From Bacteroidota bacterium (GTDB lineage: Bacteria > Bacteroidota > Bacteroidia > Flavobacteriales_D > Crocinitomicaceae), in the NCBI GenBank assembly GCA_041191505.1, contig JBEEOT010000008.1:10348-74347 (forward strand): a stretch of DNA of 64,000 nucleotides, given 5' to 3'. This document shows positions 29,828 through 49,314 of the stretch, piece by piece. The notes under the pieces are model-generated. The model saw only the letters and a program-made list of their open reading frames with translations. It was not told the DNA's origin and ran no database searches. The stretch's first letter is position 1; every line of letters begins with the position of its first letter. A program made the translations under genes and the position numbers.

Positions 29828-30464
29828 GTTGTTCTACTCTAAATTCTGTCAAATCGTTCAAATATAAATCTGCTTGTGCTTGAATGTTTGGATTACCTAC
29901 CCCTACGGCAAAAAAGCCACCTGCTTTTGCGGCTGCGATTCCAGATGCGGCGTCTTCAAATACCATACAATTTTCAGGAAGAAGGCCTAAAGCTTTGGCG
30001 CCATTTAAAAAGACTTCCGGGTGCGGTTTTGGATCTGTTACGCCGTTGCCGTCGATCACCACCTCAAAATAGGAGCGGATACTCAGTTTTTCTAAGATGA
30101 AATTGGCGTTCTTGCTAGAAGAACCAACGCCGAGGTGTATGCCTCTCTGTTTTGACTCTTGCAACAGATGTAAAACGCCTGGCAATAAATGATCTTGATT
30201 CAAGTCTTGGATAGATTCCAGATAAAAGTCGTTTTTGCTTTTTAGTAAAGCCTCGAACTCAGCACTTGAAATGGTTTTTGAACCAAGTTTTAGTATTTTT
30301 TTAAGGGAATCTACCCTACTCACGCCCTTCAAAAGTTCATTTTCTTTCTCAGTAAATTCAATTCCTAAAGAATGTGCACAGCGCTGCCATGCAATAAAAT
30401 GGTTGTGTTCAGTACTGACCAAGACGCCGTCGAGGTCGAATAAAAAAGCGGAGAATTTAGACAT
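29820..30464 (-). CDS. pgmB: beta-phosphoglucomutase (HAD superfamily)
   Basis: HAD motif I FLFDLDGVLV. Also GVGSSSKNA and VFEDAASGIAAAKAGG. Length 214 aa. Confidence 0.9.
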   Translation of the reverse strand: MSKFSAFLFDLDGVLVSTEHNHFIAWQRCAHSLGIEFTEKENELLKGVSRVDSLKKILKLGSKTISSAEFEALLKSKNDFYLESIQDLNQDHLLPGVLHLLQESKQRGIHLGVGSSSKNANFILEKLSIRSYFEVVIDGNGVTDPKPHPEVFLNGAKALGLLPENCMVFEDAASGIAAAKAGGFFAVGVGNPNIQAQADLYLNDLTEFRVEQHA

Positions 30465-31761
30465 TTTCTTCTCGAATACGCAAGGTTAGAAAGCCAGCAA
30501 CAATAAGCAAGATGCCGCCGATTGTCACTGCGGCAATGCGCGAGTTATCTAGCCAGGCAGACATGATGTCACCAAAAAATAAGGAAGCAATGATTTCAGG
30601 TAATACAATGAAGAAATTAAAGATGCCCATGTAGACACCAATTTGATGCGGTGGCAAACTCGGAACAAGCATAGCGTATGGCATAGAAAGAATACTACTC
30701 CATGCAATACCGACGAGCGCCATGATCAAAAAGAGCATCCAAGCGCTATTTGCATCTACAAAATTAATGAGCATCAGACCACAGCCGCCAATCATTAAAC
30801 TTGTGAAATGCGTCCATTTTTGACCAATTTTTGCAGCTAAAAAAGGAAGCGCCAAAGCGAATAAAAAAGTAACTATATTTTCAAATGAATAGGCCAAACC
30901 TGCGAGGTCGGCTCCTTTTCCATAAGCCTCAGAACCTGGGGCCCCTTTAAAAATCTCAGATGCAACGGCAGTTGTAAAGAAAAACCACATCAAAAACAAA
31001 CCTGGCCATGTCAAGAATTGTACTAGCGCCAACTGACGCATGCGTTTGGGCATATGAGTGATAGCTTCAAAGATTTCTTTGACGCCATTTGCAAATCCTT
31101 TTGTTTGTTTTTGTTCTGCAAGCTGTTCAGCCGTTGGCGCATATTCTTTGGTTGTAAATACGGTATAAAGTACAGCTCCGAGAAAAGCCAATGCACCAAT
31201 ATAAAAACTCCATTTTACATTGGCTGCAATTTGACCACTAGACGCAGTGCCATCCATATCAAACCAATTGGTGAAAATCCAAGGCAATGCACTTGCAATT
31301 GTAGCACCTACTCCAATAAAGAAACTTTGCATAGAAAAGCCGCGCGTGCGTTGCTCAGCAGGGAGTTGATCGGCAACAAAAGCTCTAAAAGGCTCCATGC
31401 TAATATTGATCGATGAGTCGAGCACCCAAAGTAAGCCTGCAGCCATCCAAAGAGTTGAAGAGGAAGGCATTAAAAACAAGCACAATGAACTAAGAATAGC
31501 GCCAATAAGGAAGAAAGGTCGGCGACGACCCCTAACTGGATGCCAAGTGCGGTCACTCATGTAACCGATGATCGGCTGAACCAACAAGCCCGTAAGCGGC
31601 GCTGCTAACCAAAGACCGGGTATTTGTTCAGGCTTAGCGCCAAGGCTTTCATAGATCGAACTCATGTTGGCCATTTGAAGGCCCCATCCAAATTGGATAC
31701 CCATGAAGCCGAAGCTCATGTTCCAGATTTGCCAAAACGAAAGTGTAGGTTTAGTTTGCAT
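30457..31761 (-). CDS. MFS (SLC45/GPH-like) sugar:cation symporter, probable maltose transporter
   Basis: 12-TM protein with the N-terminal FWQIWNMSFGFMGIQFGWGLQ and the RRRPF loop typical of SLC45-like disaccharide transporters. Sits within the maltose operon. Confidence 0.8.
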   Translation of the reverse strand: MQTKPTLSFWQIWNMSFGFMGIQFGWGLQMANMSSIYESLGAKPEQIPGLWLAAPLTGLLVQPIIGYMSDRTWHPVRGRRRPFFLIGAILSSLCLFLMPSSSTLWMAAGLLWVLDSSINISMEPFRAFVADQLPAEQRTRGFSMQSFFIGVGATIASALPWIFTNWFDMDGTASSGQIAANVKWSFYIGALAFLGAVLYTVFTTKEYAPTAEQLAEQKQTKGFANGVKEIFEAITHMPKRMRQLALVQFLTWPGLFLMWFFFTTAVASEIFKGAPGSEAYGKGADLAGLAYSFENIVTFLFALALPFLAAKIGQKWTHFTSLMIGGCGLMLINFVDANSAWMLFLIMALVGIAWSSILSMPYAMLVPSLPPHQIGVYMGIFNFFIVLPEIIASLFFGDIMSAWLDNSRIAAVTIGGILLIVAGFLTLRIREENV

Positions 31762-31783
31762 GGCTAGAAATGATCTAAGGTTG

Positions 31784-33103
31784 TTATTGAACGTAGACAG
31801 CGTAGCCCCAAGGAGCTAAGGTCATGACTTGTTTGCCTTTTAAATTCTCTTTTTTATTGGTAAAAAGATTCATGTAGGTACCGGCTGCATCAGAACTAAG
31901 CACTACTTTTTTGCTTTGAGCACTCAAATTTAGCAGCACCAAAACCTTTGAATTAGCATGCTCACGCGTGTAAACCAAGATGTCCTTTTCCGCTTTGGTA
32001 CTCAAGAACTTAGGAGCAGATTGCTCCATACCTACATAAAGTGCTGGCGTATTTTGATGCATGTGAAGCAAGCGACTGTAAAAATCAACTAAATCCATTT
32101 TATCCCAATTGATGCTGTCTTTGTCAAAGAATTTCAATCGGCGATCTAAGGATGTTTCTTGCCCGTTATAGACCAACGGCATACCTTGAATCGTTGCCGC
32201 CATAACAGCCATAGCAAAACGCGCCTCGCCCATGCGTTCCATTTCTGTACCGTTCCAAGAGTTTTCGTCGTGGTTCGAGGTAAAGTTCATGTGAAATGCT
32301 CCGGCGGGAAGCTCAGCACGTTCAAAGTAGGATTGAATATCTGCAGCATTTTTCTTACCCTTCGACACATCGTTCATGATGTGATGAAACTCCCAACCAT
32401 AGGTCATTTCAAAAGCGGTGTATAGTTCTTTACCCTCAGCTTCTGCCAACATAAATACAGGCTTGATTTGATCTAAAGCAGCACGAGCGGCATTCCAGAA
32501 TTCCATTGGCACCCAGCCAGCGACGTCGCAACGGTAACCATCAATATTGAAGTCGCGCACCCAGTACTCCATACAAGAAATCATTTCATTGCGCATTTCG
32601 GGATTTTCGTAATTGAGGTCAGCTACATCCCACCAGTCTGTGCCAATTGTTGGCTGCACTCTACCAAGAGAATCTAGGGTATACCAATCGAGTTTCTTTT
32701 GTTCGATCCAAAGTGCATCTGGAGATGTATGGTTGGCTACCCAATCAATAATGACTTTCATGCCTAAGTTGTGCGCAGATTCCACTAAATGTTGGAAATC
32801 TTCATGTGTGCCAAATTCTGGATTGATACCACGATAGTCTCGAACCGCATAATAACTGCCTAGACTTCCTTTTCTATTGAGTTCACCTATGGGGTGAATT
32901 GGCATCAGCCAGAGGATGTCAACGCCCATGGACTTGAGGCGCGGCAAATGCTTTTCAAAGGCAGCGAAAGTTCCTTCTGGAGTAAACTGACGAATGTTTA
33001 CTTCGTAAATTGTTGCATTCTTAACCCATTCAGGAGTTTTGAGCTGGGCAAAAGCAATGAGCGAGAAAAAACCAAATAGAATAGAAATCGTAATTTTTTT
33101 CAT
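31784..33103 (-). CDS. GH13 alpha-amylase family enzyme (secreted/periplasmic)
   Basis: Signal peptide. GH13 regions VDILWLMPIHP, DWVANH, DGYRCDVAG, MLAEAEG and FTSNHDEN. Confidence 0.9.
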   Translation of the reverse strand: MKKITISILFGFFSLIAFAQLKTPEWVKNATIYEVNIRQFTPEGTFAAFEKHLPRLKSMGVDILWLMPIHPIGELNRKGSLGSYYAVRDYRGINPEFGTHEDFQHLVESAHNLGMKVIIDWVANHTSPDALWIEQKKLDWYTLDSLGRVQPTIGTDWWDVADLNYENPEMRNEMISCMEYWVRDFNIDGYRCDVAGWVPMEFWNAARAALDQIKPVFMLAEAEGKELYTAFEMTYGWEFHHIMNDVSKGKKNAADIQSYFERAELPAGAFHMNFTSNHDENSWNGTEMERMGEARFAMAVMAATIQGMPLVYNGQETSLDRRLKFFDKDSINWDKMDLVDFYSRLLHMHQNTPALYVGMEQSAPKFLSTKAEKDILVYTREHANSKVLVLLNLSAQSKKVVLSSDAAGTYMNLFTNKKENLKGKQVMTLAPWGYAVYVQ

Positions 33104-33106
33104 GAC

Positions 33107-33970
33107 TTAAACAGTTTCTGTTTTAAGAATATATTTGAGGTGGTAATTAACAAGACCAATAACTGGCTTTTGAATAATTGAGGCAATTTGTATGCCAAGT
33201 TCTGCAGCGGCCTTATCGAGTTCTTTTTCGAAGATTTTAGACAAGGATCCTACAAAATGTACTTCGGTAGAGCGGTAATTGTCATAGCAACAAACGTGCA
33301 CTTGCATAAAGTGCTTAAACCCCTTGTAAACCATTTCTGAAAAAAATGGATTTTCCTTGTGTTTCGCGATAAACGGCATAAAAGAAGCGATAAACACATT
33401 TGCATTTGGTTCGCGGTAAACGCGATCTACGATCATGTCTTTATCTAATTGATAGGTCGCAATGAAGTCTGCTTCAATGTCGGCAGGCAGCTGATGATAC
33501 AAGAAAGAAGCGAGTAATTGTTTACCAAAATAACTACCACTGCCTTCGTCGCCAAGGACATAACCTAAAGCCGGCACCTCCTCAAGTAAGTTTTTACCAT
33601 CGAAATAACAAGAATTGCTACCTGTTCCGATAATGCAAGAAATACCAGGGTTGCCTGTGTAAGTTGCGTAGGCACAAGCCAATAGGTCGTGCTCAACTAA
33701 AATAGTGGAATTGATGAATATGCTGCGGAGCCCTTCCTCGACAATTTGATTGAGTTCAGGACTTGAACAACCAGCGCCATAAAAGTAAAGACCTTTGATG
33801 CTTGGCGCAAGCTGCATGATTTCGGTGTTTTTCTTCAACTCAGCCTCGATGATGTCAGCGGAGTGAAAATATGGATTGAAGCCCATTGTTGAAAAAAAAC
33901 TTTGGTTATTTTTGTTGTCTACTAATACCCAGTCGCTTTTGGTAGAACCACTTTCAATAATGAAATACAT
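33107..33970 (-). CDS. BadF/BadG/BcrA/BcrD-type ATPase, N-acetylglucosamine/glucose kinase-like
   Basis: Motifs IIESGSTKSDW, IIGTGSNSC and GYVLGDEGSGSYFG. Confidence 0.75.
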   Translation of the reverse strand: MYFIIESGSTKSDWVLVDNKNNQSFFSTMGFNPYFHSADIIEAELKKNTEIMQLAPSIKGLYFYGAGCSSPELNQIVEEGLRSIFINSTILVEHDLLACAYATYTGNPGISCIIGTGSNSCYFDGKNLLEEVPALGYVLGDEGSGSYFGKQLLASFLYHQLPADIEADFIATYQLDKDMIVDRVYREPNANVFIASFMPFIAKHKENPFFSEMVYKGFKHFMQVHVCCYDNYRSTEVHFVGSLSKIFEKELDKAAAELGIQIASIIQKPVIGLVNYHLKYILKTETV

Positions 33971-34017
33971 AGTTTGTTATAGAGTGAATGATAGCTTTGT
34001 GTCAATTTTACACTATC

Positions 34018-34025
34018 CAAATATA
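34018..34025 (-). promoter_or_regulatory. candidate -7 box (TAtaTTTG) for the maltose operon
   Basis: Plus strand CAAATATA, 47 nt upstream of the kinase ATG (33970) and 17 nt from the divergent regulator's GTG. Confidence 0.45.
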
Positions 34026-34042
34026 TAGATAATACTTCATAC

Positions 34043-34798
34043 GTGCAGCACAATCAAAAAAAAATCAATTCAGAACTCAATCCTAACGTATCTGTCGACT
34101 GCGTCATTTTCGGTTTTGACCTCGAACAACTCACCGTGCTGCTCATTGATCGCGGCGAAATCTCCTCTGCCTTTGGCCCTCGCCTTGCCCTACCCGGCAA
34201 CCTTATCTACGACAACGAAAATCTAGATATGGCTGCCAATCGCGTTCTCGACGAACTCACCGGCCTCAACAACATTTACCTCGAACAAGTGGGCGCCTTC
34301 GGTGACCCAGACCGCATTCACAAAGAATCTGACCGCGAATGGCTCAAGAGCATCCGTGCGGAACCAGAAGCACGCGTGATCACCGTCGCTTATTTTACCC
34401 TGGTGCCGATGTCCAACTACAAACCACAGGCTTCGTCATTCGCGAAAAATGCAGATTGGGTTCCGGTCAACGAAATCAAAGAATTGGCTTTTGACCACTT
34501 TGAAATCCTGCAAGCCGCCAAAGAAAAACTCAAACAAAAAATCAAGATTCAGCCGATCGGTTTCAATTTGCTCCCAGAAAAGTTCACATTAAGCCAATTA
34601 CACCGCCTTTACGAATCTATCCTCGACAAACCACTTGATAAAAGAAATTTCAGACGCAAAATTCAAAAGCTCGACATCTTAACAAGCCTCCGCGAAAAGC
34701 AGCGCGGTGTGCCGCACAAACCATCATTGCTTTACGAATTCAACGAGGATAAGTACCAAGAACTCACCCAAACAGGTTTTGACAACTTCGGATTTTAG
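34043..34798 (+). CDS. Nudix-fold + winged-helix transcriptional regulator (NrtR-like)
   Basis: The N-terminal Nudix fold has a degenerate Nudix box (GNLIYDNENLDMAANRVLDELTG) in which the catalytic RE..EE glutamates are partly lost. The C-terminal part is wHTH-like (LDKRNFRRKIQKLDIL). GTG start. Confidence 0.7.
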   Translation: MQHNQKKINSELNPNVSVDCVIFGFDLEQLTVLLIDRGEISSAFGPRLALPGNLIYDNENLDMAANRVLDELTGLNNIYLEQVGAFGDPDRIHKESDREWLKSIRAEPEARVITVAYFTLVPMSNYKPQASSFAKNADWVPVNEIKELAFDHFEILQAAKEKLKQKIKIQPIGFNLLPEKFTLSQLHRLYESILDKPLDKRNFRRKIQKLDILTSLREKQRGVPHKPSLLYEFNEDKYQELTQTGFDNFGF

Positions 34799-34901
34799 TC
34801 CGCACTTTTTTATCCGGTAAAAAAATCGTAATTTTCTAAGGTAAAAGTTATTACCCTGTAACTTTTACGCCAAACAAATTGTTCTACTGCCAGACACAAT
34901 T

Positions 34902-35393
34902 TTGAACCGCTACGACTACAATACCTGTGTGGACCTCCACAGCGATGCGCTGTATAGGTTTTGTTTGCATTTCTTACGAGATGTCGAACTAGCCCGCGAT
35001 ATTGTACAAGATTGCTTTGAAAAATTGTGGATCAACAAGAAAGATGTTACGCTAGAGAAAGCTAAATCTTGGTTGTTTACTTGCGCCAATCACCTTATGC
35101 TTAACCAAGTGAAGCGCAACAAAGTAAAACAACAGCATTTAGAATCGCTCTACTGGAACAACACGCCTAGCGCAGACTCCACCTTTGAAAACCAGCAACT
35201 CATCCAGCTGCTCGTCGAAGATTTGCCTCCTATGCAAAAAAGCATCTTGTTGCTCCGAGACCTCGAAGGCTACACTTATCAAGAAATCGGTTCAATGCTC
35301 TCCTTGACCGAAGCCCAAGTAAAAGTGTACCTATTTAGAGCGAGGCTCAAAGTTAAGAAACGTGCTAAAGGACAATTTGTATTGGCTTCATGA
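34902..35393 (+). CDS. ECF-type RNA polymerase sigma-70 factor
   Basis: Region 2 is ARDIVQDCFEKLW. Region 4 HTH is LPPMQKSILLLRDLEGYTYQEIGSMLSLTEAQVKVYLFRARLKVKK. TTG start. Confidence 0.85.
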   Translation: MNRYDYNTCVDLHSDALYRFCLHFLRDVELARDIVQDCFEKLWINKKDVTLEKAKSWLFTCANHLMLNQVKRNKVKQQHLESLYWNNTPSADSTFENQQLIQLLVEDLPPMQKSILLLRDLEGYTYQEIGSMLSLTEAQVKVYLFRARLKVKKRAKGQFVLAS

Positions 35394-37024
35394 AACCAAC
35401 CCTAGACAACATCGATCAATGGCTCTTTGATGCCCTCGAAGGCAATCTAAGCGCTGAGCAAGAACAAATGCTCGAGGAGTTTATTGCCCAAAATCCAGAA
35501 TTTGAAATCGAGCAAGATGCTTGGTTACACACCAGCTACTCAGCCGCTCCTATCACTTTCGAACCAAAATCAGCGCTGTATCGCAAACGTCAATTTTCTT
35601 ACAAACATTTTGCAGCTGCAGCGATCCTACTTCTCCTACTTGCTGTCAAAGCAATCTTCTTCAATCAGAGCTCTCCTTCACTTACCGTTGAGAAAGAATC
35701 GAATCCAACGCGCCGTGTATCAACTTCTATCCATCATACGTCAGCACCCCAACAATCCACCACGACAACATCATTACAATCGAAATCTACCAAATCTATT
35801 GCCACTCCAACAAGCAGCACAATTGCTCATCCTGCATTCATTTCTCCCGATTTCACCCGAATTAATTCATTCCATTCTTCGTCTGCCACTCCTCTTTCTA
35901 GCGCTGCTTTAGGAGCTTCTTTAAACCGCTCTATTTTGCCAAGTTCTATTGAGCAATCGAAGCTACAAACATTGCCAACAGAACAAATCACTGGCTACCG
36001 CACAGATTTAAACTTTGAATCTTTGGCTGGAATAGCATCCGAATTCAAGATCAATAGCAATCTGCGTTGGCCGGCCTTGCAGCGCCTGAGTCAGTTCGCA
36101 CAAAAAGAACTTGGCCTTAGCAACAACCAATCCTATGACCTTTTAGCACCTGGCAAAAGTAACATAGATGCCAATATCAGCAGCGTTGGCACCCTTTCGC
36201 AATTGCGTTTTCAAAGCACAAGCATGGCACGGAGCACTACAGAAAACGCTCAAACGGTGCTTGGCCAACAATTCAGTCTCGATGGTTACTCGCGCAGCAT
36301 GAGAGCCGGCATTGGCGTACAAGCCAATTACAAACAATATGCACAAGGTGCGATCAGTGATTACGAGCTCGGGCTTATTGCCGCACCCAAAATCATGATC
36401 AGTAGAAGGTTCATCTTGGAGCCAGCCGCGCGCTTGCGCATGGGTGCGCGCTACGCAACTACATCAAAACTACAACAACTCTCATTTATTGAATTCGAAA
36501 ACGCCGATTTAAGAACCGTTCAAATAGATACCGCCCAAGCGGTTGGGCGTCGTTTGTTCTACAAAGACCTCGATCTAAGTTTAGCGATCCAAACCCCCAT
36601 TCTCTTTGCGAGCGCTCAACTTGAAAACGCTTTCCAACATTTTGACTACGCAATGGGTAACGAACTCAATCCAAGCAACAGCCATGCGCCACAAGTGTTA
36701 ACCGTTTCATTAGGTACTCAATACGCGTCACGCAACGAAAAAATGCGCATTTCACCATACGTGCAATACCGCAGCAACCGACTACAAACCCAGTATCTAG
36801 CTGGCCTACAATTGAACATCAACAAATGGCAGTTCGGTCTTAACATTGCCAATAACAAGCAATACCAAGCTGCAATGGGCTATTTTGGCAAACACAGTGC
36901 CGTATTATTACAAAGTTGCCAACTTCAACTTCTAACACTCAACCAGCCGAGCTACTATCATCAAGTCACCTTCCGAATTTACTCTCAACCAAGCCGAAAA
37001 GCGAGACGCTATATAGACCTATAA
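35390..37024 (+). CDS. anti-sigma-like / single-TM / Ser-Thr-rich linker / PorP-SprF-like beta-barrel fusion protein
   Basis: ATGA overlap with the sigma gene. The N-terminus is LFDALEGNLSAEQEQMLEEFIAQNPEF. TM helix at aa 74-91. S/T/P-rich region at aa 94-200. By-eye alignment of aa ~240-544 to the neighbouring PorP/SprF gives AGIGVQANYKQYAQGAI vs GGVGLVALHDQQGQGTI, ISPYVQY vs LSPNIIY, and YHQVTFRI..RKARRY vs SHEVSLGI..KPARDFRR. Confidence 0.55.
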   Translation: MKPTLDNIDQWLFDALEGNLSAEQEQMLEEFIAQNPEFEIEQDAWLHTSYSAAPITFEPKSALYRKRQFSYKHFAAAAILLLLLAVKAIFFNQSSPSLTVEKESNPTRRVSTSIHHTSAPQQSTTTTSLQSKSTKSIATPTSSTIAHPAFISPDFTRINSFHSSSATPLSSAALGASLNRSILPSSIEQSKLQTLPTEQITGYRTDLNFESLAGIASEFKINSNLRWPALQRLSQFAQKELGLSNNQSYDLLAPGKSNIDANISSVGTLSQLRFQSTSMARSTTENAQTVLGQQFSLDGYSRSMRAGIGVQANYKQYAQGAISDYELGLIAAPKIMISRRFILEPAARLRMGARYATTSKLQQLSFIEFENADLRTVQIDTAQAVGRRLFYKDLDLSLAIQTPILFASAQLENAFQHFDYAMGNELNPSNSHAPQVLTVSLGTQYASRNEKMRISPYVQYRSNRLQTQYLAGLQLNINKWQFGLNIANNKQYQAAMGYFGKHSAVLLQSCQLQLLTLNQPSYYHQVTFRIYSQPSRKARRYIDL

Positions 37025-37026
37025 CT

Positions 37027-37989
37027 ATGAAAAATTTAACCTTAACCTTTTTGTTTATTTTGGCCGCTGGTCAGTTACTTGCTCAGGACCCTACATTTAC
37101 TCAGTTTTATTCCAATCCTGTGTATTTGAATCCTGCGTTGGCCGGATCGAGCGGTTGCCCACGTGTAGCACTCAATTACCGCAATGAGTGGCCACAATTA
37201 ACGGGCAATTACGTTACTTATGCCGCTTCTTACGACAGCTACTTTAAAAACATCTCAGGAGGCGTTGGCTTGGTAGCCTTGCATGACCAACAAGGGCAAG
37301 GAACAATCCAAACTTCTATGATTGGCGCGAGCTACTCCAATTACCTCAAAGTCAATCGCAAGTTTCGTCTAATGTTTGGCGCGCAAGCTGCCTATTACCA
37401 GAAATACCTCGACTGGAGTCAACTCACTTTCGGCGACATGATAGATCCGCGCCGAGGATTTATCTATCAAACAGGCGATGTACCAAGAGGTGACGGCCAT
37501 AGAGGATTTTTTGACGTATCGGCTGGCATCGTAGGTTTTAGCAAGAATTTTTATTTCGGCGCGGCTTTCCACCACCTGAACAGACCTGATGAATCCATGA
37601 TACTTGGTCAGTCCAGACTTCCTGTAAAGATCACAGGCCACCTCGGGGCGAACATCAAACTCGGGCAGCGCGGCCGTTATTCAAGCTCCACCTTCTTGTC
37701 ACCGAATATCATCTACCAATACCAGAATGGCTTTCAGCAATTAAATGTAGGTGCTTACCTCAAATACGAGAGTTTCACCATTGGTGCCTGGTATCGCAAT
37801 AAAGATGCTTTTATATTAACGCTTGGCATCAACACTGACAAATACCGCATTGGTTACAGCTATGACCTCACGGTCTCACCATTAGGCAATGGCATCAGTG
37901 GCGGTTCACATGAAGTTTCGCTTGGCATCAATCTAAAATGTAAAAAACCAGCCCGAGATTTCAGACGCATAAGCTGTCCTTCTTTCTAG
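37027..37989 (+). CDS. type IX secretion system membrane protein, PorP/SprF family
   Basis: Signal peptide followed by the hallmark QDPTFTQFYSNPVYLNPALAG. The C-terminus ...GGSHEVSLGINL...ISCPSF is typical of the family. Start trimmed to 37027. Confidence 0.85.
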   Translation: MKNLTLTFLFILAAGQLLAQDPTFTQFYSNPVYLNPALAGSSGCPRVALNYRNEWPQLTGNYVTYAASYDSYFKNISGGVGLVALHDQQGQGTIQTSMIGASYSNYLKVNRKFRLMFGAQAAYYQKYLDWSQLTFGDMIDPRRGFIYQTGDVPRGDGHRGFFDVSAGIVGFSKNFYFGAAFHHLNRPDESMILGQSRLPVKITGHLGANIKLGQRGRYSSSTFLSPNIIYQYQNGFQQLNVGAYLKYESFTIGAWYRNKDAFILTLGINTDKYRIGYSYDLTVSPLGNGISGGSHEVSLGINLKCKKPARDFRRISCPSF

Positions 37990-38028: not shown

Positions 38029-39753
38029 ATGAACAGATCAATCTTCATCTTTACTATCAGTTTGTTTGGTCAACTATTTGCCCAACAAAATTGGCTAGGC
38101 AACACCTCCCCTACCTACGACGAACTCATTGCGCATCTCAAAACAATAGATCGCGCGCACAAAGAGGTAAAATTGTACAACATGGGTGCCTCAGATTTTG
38201 GACAACCCATTTACCTCTGCGTGGTGAATGGACACAAAGATTCTCTCAAAACTTTTGAAAAAGCACGCAGTTCTACAACAATCTTGATCAATAACGCCAT
38301 ACATCCTGGCGAACCCGACGGCATCAATGCTTGTCTCATTTGGCTAGATCAATGGATTCGCGCAGGCAAACCCCTGAAGAGTCGAGACGGCGGTGATTTA
38401 CCAGTAATTGCCTTTATTCCAGCATATAATGTAGGTGGTATGTACAACCGTTCTGGAACGAGCCGCGCTAATCAAAATGGCCCTGAGGAATATGGCTTTC
38501 GAGGCTCTGCCAAAAATCTTGACCTTAACAGGGATTTTACCAAAATGGATGCCGTGAACACACATACTTTTGTACGCATCTTTCAAGCACTCGACCCAGA
38601 CATTTTCATAGATAACCACGTATCGAATGGCGCTGACTATCCTTATACCCTTACGTACATCAGCTCACTTAAAGAGCGACTTGCTCCGAGTATGCGCACC
38701 CTAACCTATGACAACTGTATACCTACCCTCAAAGAATATTGCCAAATAGGAAACTTTGAATTGTTCCCTTATGTCGAATTGAAAGAAGAAACACCTGATA
38801 ATGGGATCATTGCTTTCAATGACTTACCTCGCTATGCCATGGGTTATGCCAGCTTGTTTCATTCCCTTTCGTTTACCGTCGAAACCCATATGCTCAAACC
38901 ATTTGCTCAGCGCGTTCAGGCCACATTGCAATTCATGAATGCGACAATCGCTTTTGCTATGGAGCAAGATGCTGATCTTGAAAAAGCGCGAAGGGAAGCC
39001 AAAGAATGGGCTCAGGTTCAAACTCAATTTAAATTCAATTATCAATTAAATACCCAAAAAGTCGACAGTATCCGATTCAAGGGCTACGAAGCGACCTACC
39101 CTATTCACCCGATTACGGGTTTGGCTCAATTAGAGTACAACCGAGAAAAACCTTATGAAAAATACATCTCCTATTACAACGAATACTTCCCTCAGGACTC
39201 CATCGCCATCCCAAAATATTATGTGGTGGGAGCCCAGGAAGCAGCAGTTATCAAAAACCTACAGTTAAATGGTGTTCATTTTGAAACCGTTCAAGATTTT
39301 CACAAAGAAAAACTCACTTGTATGGTAGTAAAGAGTTACAAGGCTCCAACCCGACCCTACGAAGGTCATTTTAAACTATCCGAGATTGAACTTATGCGTA
39401 CAGAACAAGAAATCATGCTCAAACCGGGTGATATCATTATTCCGACACAACAAGAACGCGCATATTTTATTCATGCAGTTTTGCAACCAAAAGCCGAAGA
39501 CAGCTACTTTACTTGGAATTATTTTGATTCTTATCTACAACAAAAAGAGTATTTCTCTGCATATGTGTTCAAAGCGCAGATCGAAGACCTGCTCTCTAAA
39601 AATCCAGAACTCAAAAAATCCTATGAAGAAAAAAAAGCACTCGATATCAAATTTGCTCAAAGCGAATGGGATCAGCTTTTTTATATCTATCAAAGAAGTC
39701 CTTATTTTGAACCAACCTTTATGCGTTTGCCCGTTTACGAATTGAACGACTAA
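38029..39753 (+). CDS. M14 family zinc carboxypeptidase
   Basis: Signal peptide. Zn-ligand HxxE in NNAIHPGEPDG. Second motifs GFRGSAKNLDLNRDF and FIDNHVSNG. Confidence 0.85.
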   Translation: MNRSIFIFTISLFGQLFAQQNWLGNTSPTYDELIAHLKTIDRAHKEVKLYNMGASDFGQPIYLCVVNGHKDSLKTFEKARSSTTILINNAIHPGEPDGINACLIWLDQWIRAGKPLKSRDGGDLPVIAFIPAYNVGGMYNRSGTSRANQNGPEEYGFRGSAKNLDLNRDFTKMDAVNTHTFVRIFQALDPDIFIDNHVSNGADYPYTLTYISSLKERLAPSMRTLTYDNCIPTLKEYCQIGNFELFPYVELKEETPDNGIIAFNDLPRYAMGYASLFHSLSFTVETHMLKPFAQRVQATLQFMNATIAFAMEQDADLEKARREAKEWAQVQTQFKFNYQLNTQKVDSIRFKGYEATYPIHPITGLAQLEYNREKPYEKYISYYNEYFPQDSIAIPKYYVVGAQEAAVIKNLQLNGVHFETVQDFHKEKLTCMVVKSYKAPTRPYEGHFKLSEIELMRTEQEIMLKPGDIIIPTQQERAYFIHAVLQPKAEDSYFTWNYFDSYLQQKEYFSAYVFKAQIEDLLSKNPELKKSYEEKKALDIKFAQSEWDQLFYIYQRSPYFEPTFMRLPVYELND

Positions 39754-41510
39754 CGCACGATTAATTTGCCCGCATGTCTCAAGCCCTCTATTTGCCACAA
39801 ATAAAGTCCGCTTGGAAAGGAACTCAAGGAAATCGTAAATGTCTTTGAATTGATATTTTCAATTCGCATTACTTTTCCGTCAATGGAATAGATATTCATT
39901 TTACCAAAGACAGGTTTGGAAAAAGAAAAGGTGACTAAATCTTGTGTCGGATTTGGGTAAACAAATGACGTGAATACATTTTCAATTGATCCGGCATCGG
40001 TATTTCCACAAGAACTTGAAAAATAACTTTGCGTCTCATACCTACTCTGTGCCGGAATTGGATATGAAATTACCGGTTGCTCCCCAATTTTCAACCACAT
40101 GGATTGTGGTACAAAATCAGGGCAAAATGCATAGGCAAATGAAGTATCTGTTTGAAGTGAGGTACCTGCCGGAACAATTGTACCCTTGTTATTATTGGCA
40201 AATTCAAAATGACCTGTACCCTGCAAGCTGTAATTAACCAAACTATAAGGGAAAGCCGTATTGGTTACTTCATTGCCAATAAAAAGTTGATTTGGAGAAC
40301 TTTGGTCGCTAAAAAAAATACCATACAAAAAAGCTCGATTGCGATAAAATAGATTATCAGGTCCATTTGCGCCGTGAGAGTTATCGATCACGATATTATT
40401 GACGACATTTTGCTCCAACAAATTGGCATAAACATAATTGCCATGAAGTACTAAATCACCTGCGCTATTTGTGCCCAACAAAGGACTTGAATTTATCCAA
40501 TACGCATCTGTACTAAAATTGAAAGCAGCAACATTACCATTTGCCCCGGACTGAAGCAAGATGGCGTGGCGCAAGTGCTTAAAAATATTGTCTTCAATAC
40601 GACAATCACCAGTACTAGACTGCAGCACAACACCATAGGCGCGGCCTCCTCCACCATAATCAAAAGCCTCAGTGAGGTAATTTTTATGGACCAAAATCTG
40701 GGCGCAACTATTTAAAGCGATATGCGCAAAAGTGCAGTATCTAGAAAAGAGCCCGCTGATTTGCGAATTAACGACAAAATTAAATTCTATAGAACTACTT
40801 TGCTCTGGTGCTGTATCATCGATTCGCTCAATTGAAAAACACCTCAATTGAATATGCTCCTTCGGAATAATTCTCTGAACTGTACAAGGCAATTCATTGA
40901 CATAGGATCTACGGATCTTAGCAGTCAAAAAAAGTGTGTCGCCAGCCACCGCCTCAACCTGAAGCAGCTGCCCTACCGTACCAAGCGCCCATGAAGAAGT
41001 CACAAGTGAGGCATCTTGACACCTCAAATAAAGCCAATCTTTGGGCTGAAAATCATGAGCTGGGCATATTAGAAAGTGGTCGTTTTCAAGTGGTGGCAAC
41101 ACAACAGCTGGCTGATTGGTGGAGAGCGAGCCGCTGGCTTGAATCGCACTTTGTGATCCGCCTAAGTTGAATTGAAAATGAGTGAGATCAGGCCCTTCCC
41201 CTTCTATGATGAGTAGCGACTTCAATTGTAGGGTCTGTGTGAACAAAAATGTACCTTCCGGAAAGTGAATTCTTACCGTATCGTTTGAATATTGTTGTAA
41301 CAAGGCATTGATCGGAGCTGAACAATCTTGTTGGCCAGTCGGATCTAAATTGAGTGCTGCGAGGTCGAGAACTTGATAACATGAATCCGGAAGCACAGAG
41401 GAATTTACGCTTTGCCAATCTGAAAAACGATCGTAGGGAAAAGTTGTTTGGGCCTGAACGGTTTTCAGACCAAGGCATGCAAAAAGAAGTAGTAAGCAAC
41501 GCATATTCAA
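39750..41510 (-). CDS. T9SS-secreted right-handed parallel beta-helix protein
   Basis: Signal peptide MNMRCLLLLFACLGLKTVQAQ. Beta-helix-like repeats (NIFKHLRHAILLQSGANGNVAAFNF, LEQNVVNNIVIDNSHGANG). The CTD is VYPNPTQDLVTFSF...GLYLWQIEG. Confidence 0.75.
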   Translation of the reverse strand: MNMRCLLLLFACLGLKTVQAQTTFPYDRFSDWQSVNSSVLPDSCYQVLDLAALNLDPTGQQDCSAPINALLQQYSNDTVRIHFPEGTFLFTQTLQLKSLLIIEGEGPDLTHFQFNLGGSQSAIQASGSLSTNQPAVVLPPLENDHFLICPAHDFQPKDWLYLRCQDASLVTSSWALGTVGQLLQVEAVAGDTLFLTAKIRRSYVNELPCTVQRIIPKEHIQLRCFSIERIDDTAPEQSSSIEFNFVVNSQISGLFSRYCTFAHIALNSCAQILVHKNYLTEAFDYGGGGRAYGVVLQSSTGDCRIEDNIFKHLRHAILLQSGANGNVAAFNFSTDAYWINSSPLLGTNSAGDLVLHGNYVYANLLEQNVVNNIVIDNSHGANGPDNLFYRNRAFLYGIFFSDQSSPNQLFIGNEVTNTAFPYSLVNYSLQGTGHFEFANNNKGTIVPAGTSLQTDTSFAYAFCPDFVPQSMWLKIGEQPVISYPIPAQSRYETQSYFSSSCGNTDAGSIENVFTSFVYPNPTQDLVTFSFSKPVFGKMNIYSIDGKVMRIENINSKTFTISLSSFPSGLYLWQIEGLRHAGKLIVR

Positions 41511-49239: not shown

Positions 49240-49314
49240 TTCAAGAAAGTTCCGTATTTCTACTGAGTAAAACCATTCACCCCTTCTCTAATTTCGTTTT
49301 CAAACTGATTGAAA

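What the first reader, a model, noticed from the sequence alone, without database searches (positions are those of the whole stretch)
35390..37024. Single polypeptide combining an anti-sigma-like N-terminus, an inner-membrane anchor, a Ser/Thr-rich spacer and a PorP/SprF-type outer-membrane barrel
Seen in the sequence:
- The ORF starts in an ATGA overlap with the stop of an ECF sigma gene (34902..35393), the classic sigma/anti-sigma arrangement.
- Residues 1-50 (IDQWLFDALEGNLSAEQEQMLEEFIAQNPEFEIEQDAW) have the helical LxG.LS..E...LE..L..NPE pattern of anti-sigma N-domains.
- There is one hydrophobic helix at aa 74-91 (nt 35609-35662).
- Residues 94-200 (nt 35669-35989) are low-complexity S/T/P-rich.
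- Residues ~240-544 (nt ~36107-37021) align block by block, by eye, with the bona fide PorP/SprF protein encoded 2 nt downstream. The blocks are MRAGIGVQANYKQYAQGAISDYELGL vs ISGGVGLVALHDQQGQGTIQTSMIGA, SRRFILEPAARL vs NRKFRLMFGAQA, ISPYVQYRS vs LSPNIIYQY, WQFGLNIANN vs FTIGAWYRNK, and the C-terminal YHQVTFRIYSQPSRKARRY vs SHEVSLGINLKCKKPARDFRR.

Inference: a cytoplasmic sigma-binding domain would be physically tethered, across the periplasm, to a T9SS-family outer-membrane barrel. That would be a one-protein trans-envelope sensor linking T9SS or cargo status to transcription.

I do not know of a described anti-sigma::PorP/SprF fusion. Known Bacteroidota trans-envelope signalling uses FecR-type anti-sigmas plus separate SusC-like transducers.

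The design also raises a topology problem. It would have to keep an uncleaved inner-membrane anchor and a BAM-inserted barrel in the same chain, unless the protein is processed.
Basis: partly seen in the sequence, partly recalled or inferred. Interest (0 to 1): 0.8.

Follow-up and report, generated by a model that had tools for sequence, protein, structure and literature searches.

The report
Two-membrane anti-sigma with PorP barrel
One protein appears to hold a transcription factor at the inner membrane while its far end sits in the outer membrane as a type IX secretion (PorP/SprF) barrel. The two-membrane design was described in 2024 for gut Bacteroides, but I found no description of this secretion-linked version, which is widespread in environmental Bacteroidota.

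Summary
ORF 35390..37024 (544 aa) overlaps the stop of an ECF sigma gene by ATGA.

It encodes, in order:
- a confident 3-helix N-domain whose best fold matches are anti-sigma domains (individually non-significant);
- one inner-membrane helix (aa 74-91);
- a ~150-aa Ser/Thr-rich disordered linker;
- a complete but diverged PorP/SprF barrel (aa ~240-543).

The window protein itself gets no Pfam or NCBIfam hit. Full-length relatives do hit PF11751 (45-127 bits). A profile-profile comparison with the neighbouring PorP gives 100% probability, E 6e-43, over 295 columns.

This is a large family, with more than 100 clusters at 50% identity. It always sits in the cassette ECF sigma -> fusion -> free ~320-aa PorP, behind a conserved promoter motif (TGTAAC-N16-TTGTTYTA).

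[quoted passage not shown] Those carry 8-stranded barrels and have no stated T9SS link.

Verdict: a new variant of a known kind. Sigma binding, the two-membrane topology and the signal sensed are inferred, not shown. Interest 0.6.

The parts
34857..34886 (+). Conserved promoter-like motif TGTAAC-N16-TTGTTCTA, 16 nt upstream of the sigma start. It is probably the autoregulated ECF promoter of the cassette.
   Evidence: There is one exact copy in 64 kb, against 0 expected, and none further at up to 2 mismatches. Exactly one copy occurs in 56 of 63 related loci, always just upstream of the sigma gene. Close variants occur in L059 and in the distant loci L064, L065, L067 and L068.
34902..35393 (+). 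ECF sigma factor gene (163 aa, TTG start).
   Evidence: Sigma70_r2 4.7e-11 and Sigma70_r4_2 9.1e-15. The best NCBIfam match is NF058625, GFO_1088/PG0214-type ECF sigma, at 118 bits, below its cut-off of 130. Identity to the equivalent gene in nine related loci is 48-73%.
35390..35530 (+). Fusion protein aa 1-47: three-helix N-domain (helices 8-17, 22-34, 37/38-46/47), the putative cytoplasmic sigma-binding (anti-sigma) domain.
   Evidence: AF2 on the N-domain alignment gives pLDDT 89. Foldseek against the PDB returns 12 hits at E<=10. Seven of them are anti-sigma N-domains: RsiW, DdvA, RslA, MucA, ChrR (top E 0.49). NF052375 'antisigma' hits relatives P0061 and P0059 at aa 18-48 (1e-5 and 4e-5). 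The motif NIDxWLFDxxEGNLS...NPE...D.W is conserved across the whole family.
35531..35608 (+). aa 48-73: conserved basic juxtamembrane segment (PITFEPKSALYRKRQ...), predicted cytoplasmic.
   Evidence: T56, F57, E58, P59, K60, L63 and Y64 are invariant or nearly so in alignment A1. K+R enrichment before the TM helix is 3.8 against 1.4 after it, over 175 family members.
35609..35662 (+). aa 74-91: single hydrophobic helix, the inner-membrane anchor (N-in).
   Evidence: Hydropathy 2.33. AF2 predicts a helix at aa 71-94. Its position is conserved across the family (median start residue 73).
35663..36106 (+). aa 92-239: Ser/Thr-rich intrinsically disordered linker (periplasmic tether), ending in a short conserved helix (aa 228-240).
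   Evidence: pLDDT is below 50 for aa 92-247. S and T dominate its composition. Length and sequence vary between homologues. The family median linker is about 170 aa and S/N/T-rich.
36107..37018 (+). aa 240-543: diverged but complete PorP/SprF-family domain. It comprises the N-terminal periplasmic segment, a ~14-stranded barrel (aa 271-531) and a basic C-tail without cysteines.
   Evidence: hhalign 100%, E 6.1e-43, 295 columns against neighbour-PorP residues 15-316. PF11751 hits in full-length relatives: P0081 52 bits and P0080 46 bits; P0335 127, P0344 86, P0326 77 and P0301 77 bits. AF2 predicts a barrel with pLDDT about 70-90. Foldseek matches FadL, TodX and OmpG barrels, E 2e-7 to 1e-5.
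37027..37989 (+). Free PorP/SprF gene (320 aa; signal peptide; conserved C-tail ...KCKK-x9-SCPSF). It is an obligate partner of the cassette.
   Evidence: PF11751 4.2e-58 and TIGR03519 4.8e-69. It lies directly downstream of the fusion in every locus examined. It is the most conserved gene of the trio (51-87% identity). The C-x11-C-P-[ST]-F tail is kept in all distant loci.
38029..39753 (+). M14 carboxypeptidase-like gene, 39 nt downstream on the same strand. It is possibly co-transcribed and is clade-specific, not part of the core cassette.
   Evidence: Peptidase_M14 1.2e-8. It is present in L004-L007 and absent after the PorP gene in L001, L003 and L064-L068.

Best explanation

**Proposed working**
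1. The three-helix N-domain sequesters the co-translated ECF sigma factor at the cytoplasmic face of the inner membrane.
2. Residues 74-91 anchor the chain N-in.
3. The ~150-aa disordered Ser/Thr-rich tether crosses the periplasm.
4. The C-terminal ~300 aa fold as a 14-stranded FadL-like PorP/SprF barrel in the outer membrane.
5. When the state of that barrel changes, the tether becomes a substrate for regulated proteolysis (site-1 cleavage, then an RseP-like site-2 cleavage). My best guess is that the change is its engagement with the same T9SS partners that the free PorP uses: the translocon, the GldK/N track or a type B cargo. Failure to assemble in the outer membrane is an alternative.
6. 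The sigma factor is released and transcribes from the conserved TGTAAC-N16-TTGTTYTA promoter. That raises sigma, the fusion and, above all, the free, highly conserved PorP encoded 2 nt downstream.
7. The barrel would thus act as a tethered sensor paralogue of the PorP whose supply it controls.

**Shown here**
- The domain architecture.
- PorP/SprF homology.
- The conserved three-gene cassette.
- The conserved promoter-like motif.
- The family's breadth.

**Inferred**
- Sigma binding.
- The two-membrane topology (by analogy with Dma1).
- The proteolytic release.
- The T9SS nature of the signal.
- That the motif is this sigma's promoter.
For: **Architecture**
- ATGA overlap with the ECF sigma gene.
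- N-domain model with pLDDT 89; 7 of 12 PDB fold hits are anti-sigma N-domains.
- NF052375 antisigma and PRK13920 hits in relatives.
- Weak zf-HC2 and DUF4880 hits on paralogous copies of the N-domain.
- A TM helix obeying the positive-inside rule, conserved over 175 members.
- A disordered linker.

**PorP/SprF identity of the C-domain**
- hhalign 100%, E 6e-43.
- PF11751 above its gathering score in relatives that align full-length with the query at E 1e-73 to 1e-92.
- FadL/OmpG-like barrel fold. Published work describes PorP-like proteins as 14-stranded FadL-family barrels (PMC9143113).

**Cassette**
- The order sigma -> fusion -> 319-327-aa PorP holds in all 14 individually annotated loci, L001-L007 and L064-L068, down to 17-28% barrel identity.

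**Promoter**
- One copy per locus, directly upstream of the sigma gene.

**Precedent for the topology and for anti-sigma function**
- Dma1 pulls down Das1, and full-length protein is detected with both N- and C-terminal tags. Only C-terminal fragments are found in OMVs. Deleting Dma1 de-represses the sigma regulon (PMC10927553).
- Dma2 has the same four-part plan (PMC13088901).
Against: - The window protein itself hits no anti-sigma or PorP/SprF model.
- The N-domain profile finds nothing in PDB sequences, and its fold matches are individually non-significant (best E 0.49).
- One clade (Lishizhenia-like: L006, L024, L025, L027, L029, L031, L032) lacks helices 1-2 of the N-domain yet keeps the overlap with sigma. 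Sigma sequestration may therefore not be universal, or it may need only part of the domain.
- The fusion barrel is the fastest-evolving part (17-61% identity, against 51-87% for the free PorP). [quoted passage not shown] It may therefore no longer interact with T9SS parts.
- No second promoter copy was seen in the 64-kb window or in the ~9-14-kb loci, so no regulon beyond the cassette is visible.
- No interaction, localisation or expression data exist for this family.
Confidence: 0.5

Rival explanations
1. It has the same Dma-like architecture and anti-sigma role, but the barrel is only a generic outer-membrane anchor or envelope-stress sensor, as proposed for Dma1/Dma2. It would be derived from a duplicated PorP and no longer functionally connected to type IX secretion.
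For: - The fusion barrel evolves much faster than the free PorP.
- It has lost the PorP consensus in the window's clade, with no PF11751 hit.
- It lacks the tail cysteines kept by the free PorP (PMC12635249).
- The Dma family shows that any barrel may serve.
Against: - The strict, ancient linkage to a free and highly conserved PorP gene in every locus is hard to explain without a PorP-related function.
- The PorP N-terminal periplasmic segment and all barrel blocks remain alignable over 295 columns.
- The more distant family members keep strong PF11751 scores (77-127 bits).
Confidence: 0.25
2. The chain is cut soon after export, by signal-peptidase-like or site-1 cleavage near the TM helix or within the linker. 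At steady state there would be a short membrane anti-sigma stub and a separate free PorP-like barrel, with no standing trans-envelope link. The fusion would serve only for co-expression or stoichiometry.
For: - V-K-A follows the hydrophobic core (aa 86-88), a possible -3/-1 site read from the sequence.
- C-terminal fragments of Dma1 occur in OMVs.
- Long disordered linkers are protease-sensitive.
Against: - The VKA site is not conserved in homologues.
- The hydrophobic stretch is TM-length: 18 residues, modelled as a 24-residue helix.
- Linkers are long throughout the family, with a median of about 170 aa, as expected if they must span the periplasm.
- Full-length Dma1 is detected with both tags in membranes.
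Confidence: 0.15
3. The N-domain is not an anti-sigma domain. The protein would be a structural T9SS or gliding component, a PorP paralogue tethered to the inner membrane, merely co-transcribed with a sigma factor that is regulated in another way.
For: - There is no significant sequence hit of the query to anti-sigma models.
- One clade has a truncated N-domain.
- Soluble proteins carry 4-6 tandem copies of the same domain, so the domain is not restricted to sigma partners.
Against: - The 4-nt overlap with an ECF sigma gene holds in all but two of the annotated loci (14 nt in L064; a 3-nt gap in L068).
- Anti-sigma domains are enriched among the fold hits.
- NF052375, PRK13920 and zf-HC2 hits occur in relatives.
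- The placement is the same as in Dma1 and Reo, whose N-regions bind their sigma factors.
Confidence: 0.08
4. The ORF is an artefact: two genes (a small anti-sigma and a PorP) joined by a sequencing or assembly frameshift.
For: None found.
Against: - The same uninterrupted ORF of about 510-730 aa occurs in hundreds of independent metagenome and MAG assemblies.
- The linker is in frame and varies in length.
- There is no signal peptide or start codon at the barrel's N-terminus.
Confidence: 0.01

Closest known systems
[quoted passage not shown] 2024, PMC10927553; PMC13088901)
   Same: - Same four-part plan: N-terminal sigma-binding region, one TM helix, a long disordered tether and a C-terminal outer-membrane beta-barrel.
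- Encoded next to (here overlapping) an ECF sigma gene in a small operon.
- Restricted to Bacteroidota.
- The proposed release mechanism is proteolysis.
   Different: - The Dma1 barrel is an 8-stranded OMP_b-brl_2 domain. Here it is a ~300-aa, ~14-stranded PorP/SprF (PF11751) domain.
- Dma sigmas are ECF21; the group of this sigma was not determined.
- The Dma regulon concerns vesiculation (NigD1). Here the only visible target is the cassette itself, including a free PorP.
- B. thetaiotaomicron has no T9SS (my own knowledge).
- Sequence relatedness of the N-domains could not be tested.
PorP/SprF family of T9SS outer-membrane carrier/anchor proteins (P. gingivalis PorP, F. johnsoniae SprF; PF11751, TIGR03519)
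   Same: The C-terminal 300 aa are homologous over the whole mature PorP. They have the same predicted FadL-like barrel class, with periplasmic N- and C-termini.
   Different: - Classical members are free-standing ~300-330-aa proteins with a cleaved signal peptide.
- They usually sit next to their type B CTD cargo gene.
- SprF has tail cysteines that bond to GldK.
- The fusion replaces the signal peptide by an anti-sigma domain, TM helix and tether. It has no tail cysteines, sits next to another PorP rather than a cargo gene, and is much more divergent.
Cell-surface signalling: FecA-FecR-FecI, and the SusC-like transducer / FecR-type anti-sigma / ECF sigma systems of Bacteroidota
   Same: An outer-membrane barrel controls an ECF sigma factor through a single-pass inner-membrane anti-sigma factor.
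   Different: There the receptor and the anti-sigma are separate proteins that touch in the periplasm and depend on TonB. Here both are one chain joined by a disordered tether, and the barrel is not a TonB-dependent transporter.
PorA-PorY-PorX-SigP pathway of P. gingivalis (PMC7712824, PMC12152298)
   Same: A known route by which a T9SS-related surface protein feeds back on an ECF sigma factor that controls T9SS genes.
   Different: It works through a two-component system and stabilisation of SigP, with no anti-sigma factor. The components are unrelated to the window cassette.
RseA/sigmaE-type regulated intramembrane proteolysis; class I anti-sigma domains (RsiW, RslA, ChrR, MucA)
   Same: A short helical cytoplasmic domain followed by one TM helix. 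These are the best (weak) fold matches of the N-domain.
   Different: There is no zinc-binding HxxxCxxC motif. The domain has only three helices in about 47 aa. The extracytoplasmic part is a tether plus a membrane barrel, not a soluble periplasmic domain.

Membership tests
[quoted passage not shown] | Gene adjacent to, and co-oriented with, an ECF sigma gene. | tested here: met
   There is a 4-nt ATGA overlap in the window. The same arrangement holds in all annotated related loci.
[quoted passage not shown] | The N-terminal cytoplasmic region binds and inhibits the cognate sigma factor. | not testable with these tools
   Only indirect evidence is available: a 3-helix fold, weak anti-sigma fold and HMM matches, and gene context.
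[quoted passage not shown] | A single alpha-helical TM segment after the N-domain. | tested here: met
   aa 74-91 (hydropathy 2.33; AF2 helix at 71-94). It is conserved at about residue 73 in 175 members and follows the positive-inside rule.
[quoted passage not shown] | A long intrinsically disordered tether. | tested here: met
   pLDDT is below 50 for aa 92-247. The region is S/T-rich and varies in length and sequence; the family median is about 170 aa.
[quoted passage not shown] | A C-terminal outer-membrane beta-barrel. | tested here: met
   AF2 predicts a barrel at aa 271-531 with pLDDT 70-90. Foldseek matches FadL, OmpG and autotransporter barrels at E 2e-7 to 1e-5.
[quoted passage not shown] | The barrel is of the 8-stranded OMP_b-brl_2 type, as in Dma1. 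| tested here: not met
   There is no OMP_b-brl_2 hit. The domain is PorP/SprF, about 14 strands and about 300 aa.
[quoted passage not shown] | The cognate sigma belongs to group ECF21. | not tested
   No ECF-group classifier was on hand. The best NCBIfam match is NF058625 (PG0214/GFO_1088 type), below its cut-off.
[quoted passage not shown] | Sequence homology to Dma1, Dma2 or Dma3. | not testable with these tools
   The B. thetaiotaomicron sequences could not be fetched.
[quoted passage not shown] | One polypeptide physically present in both membranes. | not testable with these tools
   This needs tagging and fractionation, as was done for Dma1.
PorP/SprF (PF11751 / TIGR03519) | The protein itself scores above the curated HMM threshold. 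| tested here: not met
   There is no hit at E<=1 in Pfam or NCBIfam. Only 3 of 23 close-family members hit PF11751.
PorP/SprF (PF11751 / TIGR03519) | Homology over the whole domain, shown by profile methods or through intermediates. | tested here: met
   hhalign 100%, E 6.1e-43, 295 columns. Full-length relatives score 45-127 bits on PF11751, covering profile positions 3-273.
PorP/SprF (PF11751 / TIGR03519) | A 14-stranded FadL-family outer-membrane barrel. | tested here: met
   The top PDB fold hits are FadL, TodX and OmpG. The model has about 14-15 strands. The family description comes from PMC9143113.
PorP/SprF (PF11751 / TIGR03519) | A free-standing protein of about 300 aa with a cleavable Sec signal peptide. 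| tested here: not met
   The barrel is preceded by 239 aa: the N-domain, the TM helix and the tether.
PorP/SprF (PF11751 / TIGR03519) | Periplasmic C-tail cysteines (SprF CxC, disulfide-bonded to GldK). | tested here: not met
   The fusion tail QPSRKARRYIDL has no Cys. The neighbouring free PorP keeps C-x11-C-P-S-F. The motif's role is taken from PMC12635249.
PorP/SprF (PF11751 / TIGR03519) | Binds and anchors a type B CTD cargo, or associates with the T9SS core. | not testable with these tools
   No interaction data exist. No type B CTD gene is conserved next to the cassette.
Class I anti-sigma domain (ASD / zf-HC2, PF13490) | An HMM match to an anti-sigma N-domain model. | tested here: inconclusive
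   The query has none. Relatives match NF052375 at 1e-5 and PRK13920 at 0.003. Paralogous domain copies give weak zf-HC2 and DUF4880 hits. The profile against PDB sequences finds nothing.
Class I anti-sigma domain (ASD / zf-HC2, PF13490) | The helical ASD fold. | tested here: inconclusive
   The model is a confident 3-helix bundle. Seven of 12 Foldseek hits are anti-sigma domains, but the best E is 0.49 and TM-scores are about 0.4-0.5.
Class I anti-sigma domain (ASD / zf-HC2, PF13490) | Zinc ligands HxxxCxxC. | tested here: not met
   The equivalent stretch reads FIAQNPEFE, with no His or Cys.

The most novel reading that the evidence does not exclude
The tethered PorP/SprF barrel would be a working T9SS carrier mimic. 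It docks on the translocon or the moving GldK/N track like SprF or PorP. Because it is tied to the inner membrane by a ~150-aa tether, secretion or gliding activity pulls on it. That force, or the resulting exposure of the tether to a site-1 protease, releases the sigma factor. The cell would then read the mechanical or occupancy state of its type IX machinery directly and adjust the supply of the free PorP accordingly. This would be a force- or occupancy-gated trans-envelope anti-sigma factor.
Probability: 0.12. Interest if true: 0.85.

Novelty: new variant of a known kind. Interest (0 to 1): 0.6.

Why it matters
[quoted passage not shown] They are so far known only from T9SS-less gut Bacteroides, with small generic barrels and unknown signals.

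- **It broadens the Dma class.** This family shows the same design built on a barrel with a defined cellular role: a PorP/SprF carrier of the type IX secretion and gliding machinery. It is locked into a conserved cassette with its sigma factor, its promoter and a second, highly conserved PorP. The design becomes a modular principle (any outer-membrane barrel on a tether) rather than a single family.
- **It suggests a signal.** The candidate signal is concrete and testable: the state of T9SS or PorP partners. That is exactly what is missing for Dma1 and Dma2.
- **It points to unnoticed regulation.** PorP-type T9SS components in environmental Flavobacteriales and other Bacteroidota may have a transcriptional control layer that has gone unnoticed.
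- **It bears on barrel assembly.** It provides a second, independent test case for how BAM assembles a barrel that stays tied to the inner membrane.

Tried and rejected
- **Direct family scans.** Pfam and NCBIfam scans of the window protein found nothing relevant. Identity had to come from relatives and profile-profile comparison.
- **PDB sequence searches.** Searches with the full-length alignment and with the N-domain alignment gave no meaningful hit. No PorP/SprF structure surfaced in the PDB fold search, only generic 12-16-stranded barrels.
- **Regulon search.** The promoter motif at up to 2 mismatches found no second site in the window, and related loci have one site each. The regulon beyond the cassette stays unknown.
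- **Taxonomy of distant members.** The third word-indexed homologue search, using a diverse alignment (A3), returned essentially the same 82 proteins and no new named organisms. Cluster look-ups gave almost no names. The distant members' taxonomy is unresolved beyond 'Bacteroidota'. The single genome scan reached only Crocinitomicaceae, Cryomorphaceae and Flavobacteriales MAGs, plus a few MAGs whose labels look like binning or labelling errors (Sphingomonadales, Chryseobacterium gleum, Chitinophaga pinensis).
- **ECF reclassification paper.** Its supplement might list this sigma/anti-sigma group, but it is not held. The main text does not mention PorP/SprF or ECF21.
- **PG0214 lead.** This came from the NCBIfam name. 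The P. gingivalis PG0214-0218 cluster is described only as 'hypothetical', and the window sigma is below that model's cut-off, so I dropped it.
- **Frameshift artefact.** Rejected, because the ORF recurs in many independent assemblies.
- **Extended signal peptide.** Rejected as unlikely, given the 73-aa folded N-domain, the TM-length helix and the non-conserved cleavage motif.
- **Sigma/N-domain co-fold.** Not possible: the tool takes one chain, and the two genes are in different frames.

Full report
**1. The observation**

The ORF at 35390..37024 (+) is real and reads through 544 codons. Its ATG lies inside the ATGA that ends the preceding gene (..GCT TCA TGA).

The preceding gene, 34902..35393, encodes a 163-aa ECF sigma factor. 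It has Sigma70_r2 (4.7e-11) and Sigma70_r4_2 (9.1e-15) domains. Its best NCBIfam match is NF058625, the PG0214/GFO_1088 type, at 118 bits, below that model's cut-off of 130.

Two nucleotides after the stop of the 544-aa ORF, an ATG opens a 320-aa gene. It is an unambiguous PorP/SprF protein (PF11751 4.2e-58; TIGR03519 4.8e-69).

**2. Anatomy of the protein**

AlphaFold2 was run on an alignment of 23 full-length homologues. It gives:
- three short helices (8-17, 22-34, 37-47; pLDDT about 77);
- a long helix at 71-94;
- no structure at all for aa 92-247 (pLDDT 23-46);
- a beta-barrel from 271 to 531 (pLDDT mostly 70-90).

The barrel matches solved outer-membrane barrels. FadL is at the top (E 2e-7), followed by TodX and the 14-stranded OmpG (TM-score about 0.6 relative to the target). 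That fits the published description of PorV and PorP-like proteins as 14-stranded FadL-family barrels (PMC9143113).

The hydrophobic segment has 5 Lys/Arg in the 15 residues before it and 1 after. Over 175 family members the figures are 3.8 against 1.4, with the segment starting at a median residue 73. This predicts an N-in anchor: the N-domain in the cytoplasm and everything after residue 91 outside it.

**3. Is the C-terminal half PorP/SprF?**

Not by a direct scan. The window protein hits nothing in Pfam or NCBIfam, and only 3 of 23 close relatives reach PF11751. Three lines of evidence settle it even so.

- *The neighbour.* BLASTP against the neighbouring PorP gives a colinear 110-residue match (E 4e-5).
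- *Relatives that do hit PF11751.* These relatives align with the query over 100% of its length.
  - P0080 aligns at E 3e-92 and P0081 at 3e-73. They score 45.6 and 52.4 bits on PF11751 against a gathering score of 22.3, covering profile positions 25-273 of 273.
  - More distant members with the same architecture score 77-127 bits.
- *Profile-profile comparison.* hhalign of the family C-domain against an alignment of neighbour PorPs gives 92.7% with the shallow alignment. With 123 diverse family members it gives 100%, E 6.1e-43, over 295 columns. The match covers mature PorP from residue 15 to 316 of 322. That includes the N-terminal periplasmic segment (QDPxFTQFYxNPxxLNPA.. against ..RDPxYxxP......N.S..G) and the last strand.

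The domain is therefore complete, corresponding to aa ~240-543 of the window protein.

**4. Is the N-terminus an anti-sigma domain?**

The evidence is consistent but softer.

*For:*
- The motif NIDxWLF[DE]xxEGNLSxxQxxxLxxFLxxNPExxxDxDxW is the best-conserved sequence feature across the whole family.
- An AF2 model of aa 1-68 is confident (pLDDT 89).
- Its Foldseek search of 350,542 PDB chains returns only 12 hits at E<=10. Seven are cytoplasmic domains of anti-sigma factors: RsiW twice, DdvA, RslA twice, MucA and ChrR. None is individually significant (best E 0.49).
- Two relatives match the N-terminus of NCBIfam NF052375 'anti-sigma factor' (1e-5 and 4e-5) and PRK13920.
- Tandem copies of the same domain in a different protein type give weak zf-HC2 and DUF4880 hits.

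*Against:*
- There are no zinc ligands.
- A profile search of PDB sequences finds nothing.

The strongest argument is context. In all but two of the annotated loci the gene overlaps the stop of an ECF sigma gene by 4 nt; the exceptions are a 14-nt overlap in L064 and a 3-nt gap in L068.

**5. A family and a cassette, not a one-off**

*Size of the family*
- The word-indexed search found 82 clusters at 90% identity, all labelled hypothetical.
- The exhaustive HMMER search of 1.84 billion representatives found 136 proteins below 1e-30. Most are 520-730 aa long and match the profile from position ~2 to ~545. That means well over 100 clusters at 50% identity share the full architecture.
- Some are annotated 'PorP/SprF family membrane protein', and none is annotated as an anti-sigma factor.
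- Named sources are Crocinitomicaceae, Cryomorphaceae and Flavobacteriales MAGs and 'Bacteroidota bacterium'.

*The cassette*
- In all 14 individually annotated loci the order is ECF sigma -> fusion -> free PorP/SprF of 319-327 aa. This includes loci where the barrel is only 17-28% identical to the window's. The flanking genes differ.
- The free PorP is the most conserved gene (51-87% identity). Next come sigma (48-73%), the N-domain (32-56%) and the fusion barrel (17-61%).
- The free PorP keeps a C-tail C-x11-C-P-[ST]-F everywhere. The fusion tail has no cysteine. This matters because the tail cysteines of SprF form the disulfide bond to GldK that couples it to the moving track (PMC12635249).

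**6. A conserved promoter**

Sixteen nucleotides upstream of the sigma start lies TGTAACTTTTACGCCAAACAAATTGTTCTA (34857-34886).

- The pattern TGTAAC-N15-17-TTGTTYTA occurs once in the 64-kb window, against 0 expected.
- It occurs exactly once in 56 of 63 related loci, always in the same place.
- Six of the seven loci without it are cut off upstream. The seventh, L059, has a one-base variant.
- The core TGTAACTTTT-N11-12-TTGT is also present in four of the five most distant loci (L064, L065, L067, L068), and L066 keeps only the TGTAACTTTT element.

This has the form of an autoregulated ECF promoter, which is an inference. No second copy exists in the window, even at 2 mismatches. The only visible target is therefore the cassette itself, which includes the free PorP.

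**7. What is known**

[quoted passage not shown] They have an N-terminal sigma-binding region, a TM helix, a long disordered tether and a C-terminal 8-stranded OMP_b-brl_2 barrel, next to ECF21 sigma genes.
- The authors report that Dma1 binds its sigma factor Das1. Full-length protein is seen with both N- and C-terminal tags in membranes, while only C-terminal fragments reach OMVs. Deletion de-represses the sigma regulon.
- They propose sensing by the barrel followed by proteolytic release. They also note that it is unknown how such a protein is assembled.
- A 2026 follow-up on Dma2 restates the four-part definition (PMC13088901).
- Neither paper mentions PorP, SprF or type IX secretion.
- Their search for further members was confined to sigma/anti-sigma pairs of B. 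thetaiotaomicron, plus tblastn with Dma1-3 at 95% query cover. That approach could not have found this family.
- Full-text searches found no description of the fusion. The terms were: anti-sigma with PorP, SprF, T9SS or type IX secretion with beta-barrel; PorP-like with sigma; PF11751; and the Dma phrase.
- This literature check is limited to open-access papers and bioRxiv.

**8. Most likely mechanism**

I read the protein as a Dma-type anti-sigma factor with a PorP/SprF barrel.

*Shown:*
- the architecture;
- the homology;
- the cassette;
- the promoter motif;
- the family's breadth.

*Inferred by analogy with Dma1/Reo and general ECF biology:*
- The N-domain holds the sigma factor at the inner membrane.
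- The tether crosses the periplasm. About 150 aa would reach well beyond the periplasmic width if extended.
- The barrel sits in the outer membrane.
- A change at the barrel leads to cleavage of the tether and then intramembrane cleavage, which frees sigma to transcribe the cassette.

*My specific proposal, at low to moderate confidence:*
- The barrel is a sensor paralogue of the free PorP.
- It monitors the same partner: the translocon, the GldK/N track or a type B cargo.
- The cell thereby adjusts PorP supply.

The invariable pairing with a free PorP favours a T9SS link. Two observations count against it: the barrel evolves fast, and it has lost the tail cysteines. Both would equally fit a generic outer-membrane anchor (rival 1).

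**9. Loose ends**

- One clade lacks about 30 residues, helices 1-2 of the N-domain. It comprises L006, L024, L025, L027, L029, L031 and L032, some labelled Lishizhenia. A stop codon lies 8 codons upstream of the ATG, so this is not a miscalled start. Either sigma control there needs only helix 3 and the juxtamembrane segment, or it has been lost.
- The taxonomy of the distant branches is unresolved.
- So are the sigma's ECF group, any sequence relation of the N-domain to Dma1, and the regulon outside the cassette.

**10. Verdict**

The architecture holds, the novelty claim is outdated as stated, and function is untested.
- Interest is 0.6. It would not astonish a specialist who knows the Dma work. 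It does widen that class considerably, ties it to a defined machine and offers a testable signal.

Noticed in passing
window 34857-34886 (+); one copy in each of L001-L016, L019-L032, L034-L045, L047-L049, L051-L058, L060, L061, L063: A deeply conserved promoter-like motif, TGTAAC-N16-TTGTT[CT]TA, lies immediately upstream of the ECF sigma gene. It occurs once per locus and nowhere else in the 64-kb window. The core is kept even where the proteins are only 20-50% identical.
   Followed up: yes
window 34841-34868; equivalent positions in 48 distinct related promoters: Short inverted repeats bracket or overlap the TGTAAC element. In the window they are GTAAAAGTTA...TAACTTTTAC. The mean best stem is 5.6 bp, against 3.8 in shuffled controls, and the arms differ between clades. 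This could be an operator or a duplicated -35 element; its meaning is unknown.
   Followed up: partly
L006 6001-; also L024, L025, L027, L029, L031, L032: A clade of the family lacks about 30 N-terminal residues (helices 1-2 of the putative sigma-binding domain). It still overlaps the sigma gene. A stop codon 8 codons upstream rules out a longer start.
   Followed up: partly
proteins P0331, P0338, P0342, P0343, P0345, P0347 (from; not in the window): These proteins of 517-613 aa carry 4-6 tandem copies of the same N-domain, with no TM helix and no PorP domain. They give weak zf-HC2 and DUF4880 hits. They look like a soluble multi-anti-sigma-domain protein type of unknown role.
   Followed up: partly
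window 37027-37989 and its counterparts in L001-L007, L064-L068: The free PorP of the cassette is far more conserved than the fusion or the sigma (51-87% identity). It ends in an invariant C-x11-C-P-[ST]-F tail. That tail may be the counterpart of the SprF CxC motif that is disulfide-bonded to GldK.
   Followed up: partly
L064 2530-4293, L065 2542-4305, L066 2549-4312, L067 2368-4134, L068 3485-5242 (all minus strand): In the five most distant loci a 585-588-aa AMP-binding (acyl-CoA synthetase-like) gene lies upstream of the sigma gene on the opposite strand, directly adjacent in four of them. In L067 an NMO-family gene (4249-5256, plus strand) lies between the two. It is curious next to FadL-family barrels, but it may simply be shared synteny.
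   Followed up: no
window 27548-34798: Upstream of the cassette lie an NrtR-like NUDIX/winged-helix regulator (34043-34798, +) and a minus-strand maltose/alpha-glucan cluster. The cluster comprises GH65, a HAD phosphatase, an MFS transporter, an alpha-amylase and a BadF-type kinase-like gene. This neighbourhood is conserved in the closer relatives (L003-L006).
   Followed up: partly
window 39750-41510 (-), 41568-48503 (-), 49309-51051 (+): Three T9SS type A cargo genes (Por_Secre_tail C-terminal domains) lie near the cassette. They are a beta-helix protein, a 2311-aa GEVED/Ig-repeat giant and a PKD/Ig protein. No type B (CHU_C) cargo was seen among the window genes scanned.
   Followed up: partly
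window 36916-37989: The mechanical ORF list starts the PorP gene at TTG 36916, overlapping the fusion by 109 nt. The biologically sensible start is ATG 37027 (MKNLTLTF..., a signal peptide), as in all homologues.
   Followed up: yes
L016, L022, L036, L055, L056, L060 (record titles): Several MAGs that carry the cassette are labelled Sphingomonadales, Chryseobacterium gleum or Chitinophaga pinensis. Their loci are close to those of Crocinitomicaceae MAGs, so the labels probably reflect binning or labelling errors.
   Followed up: no
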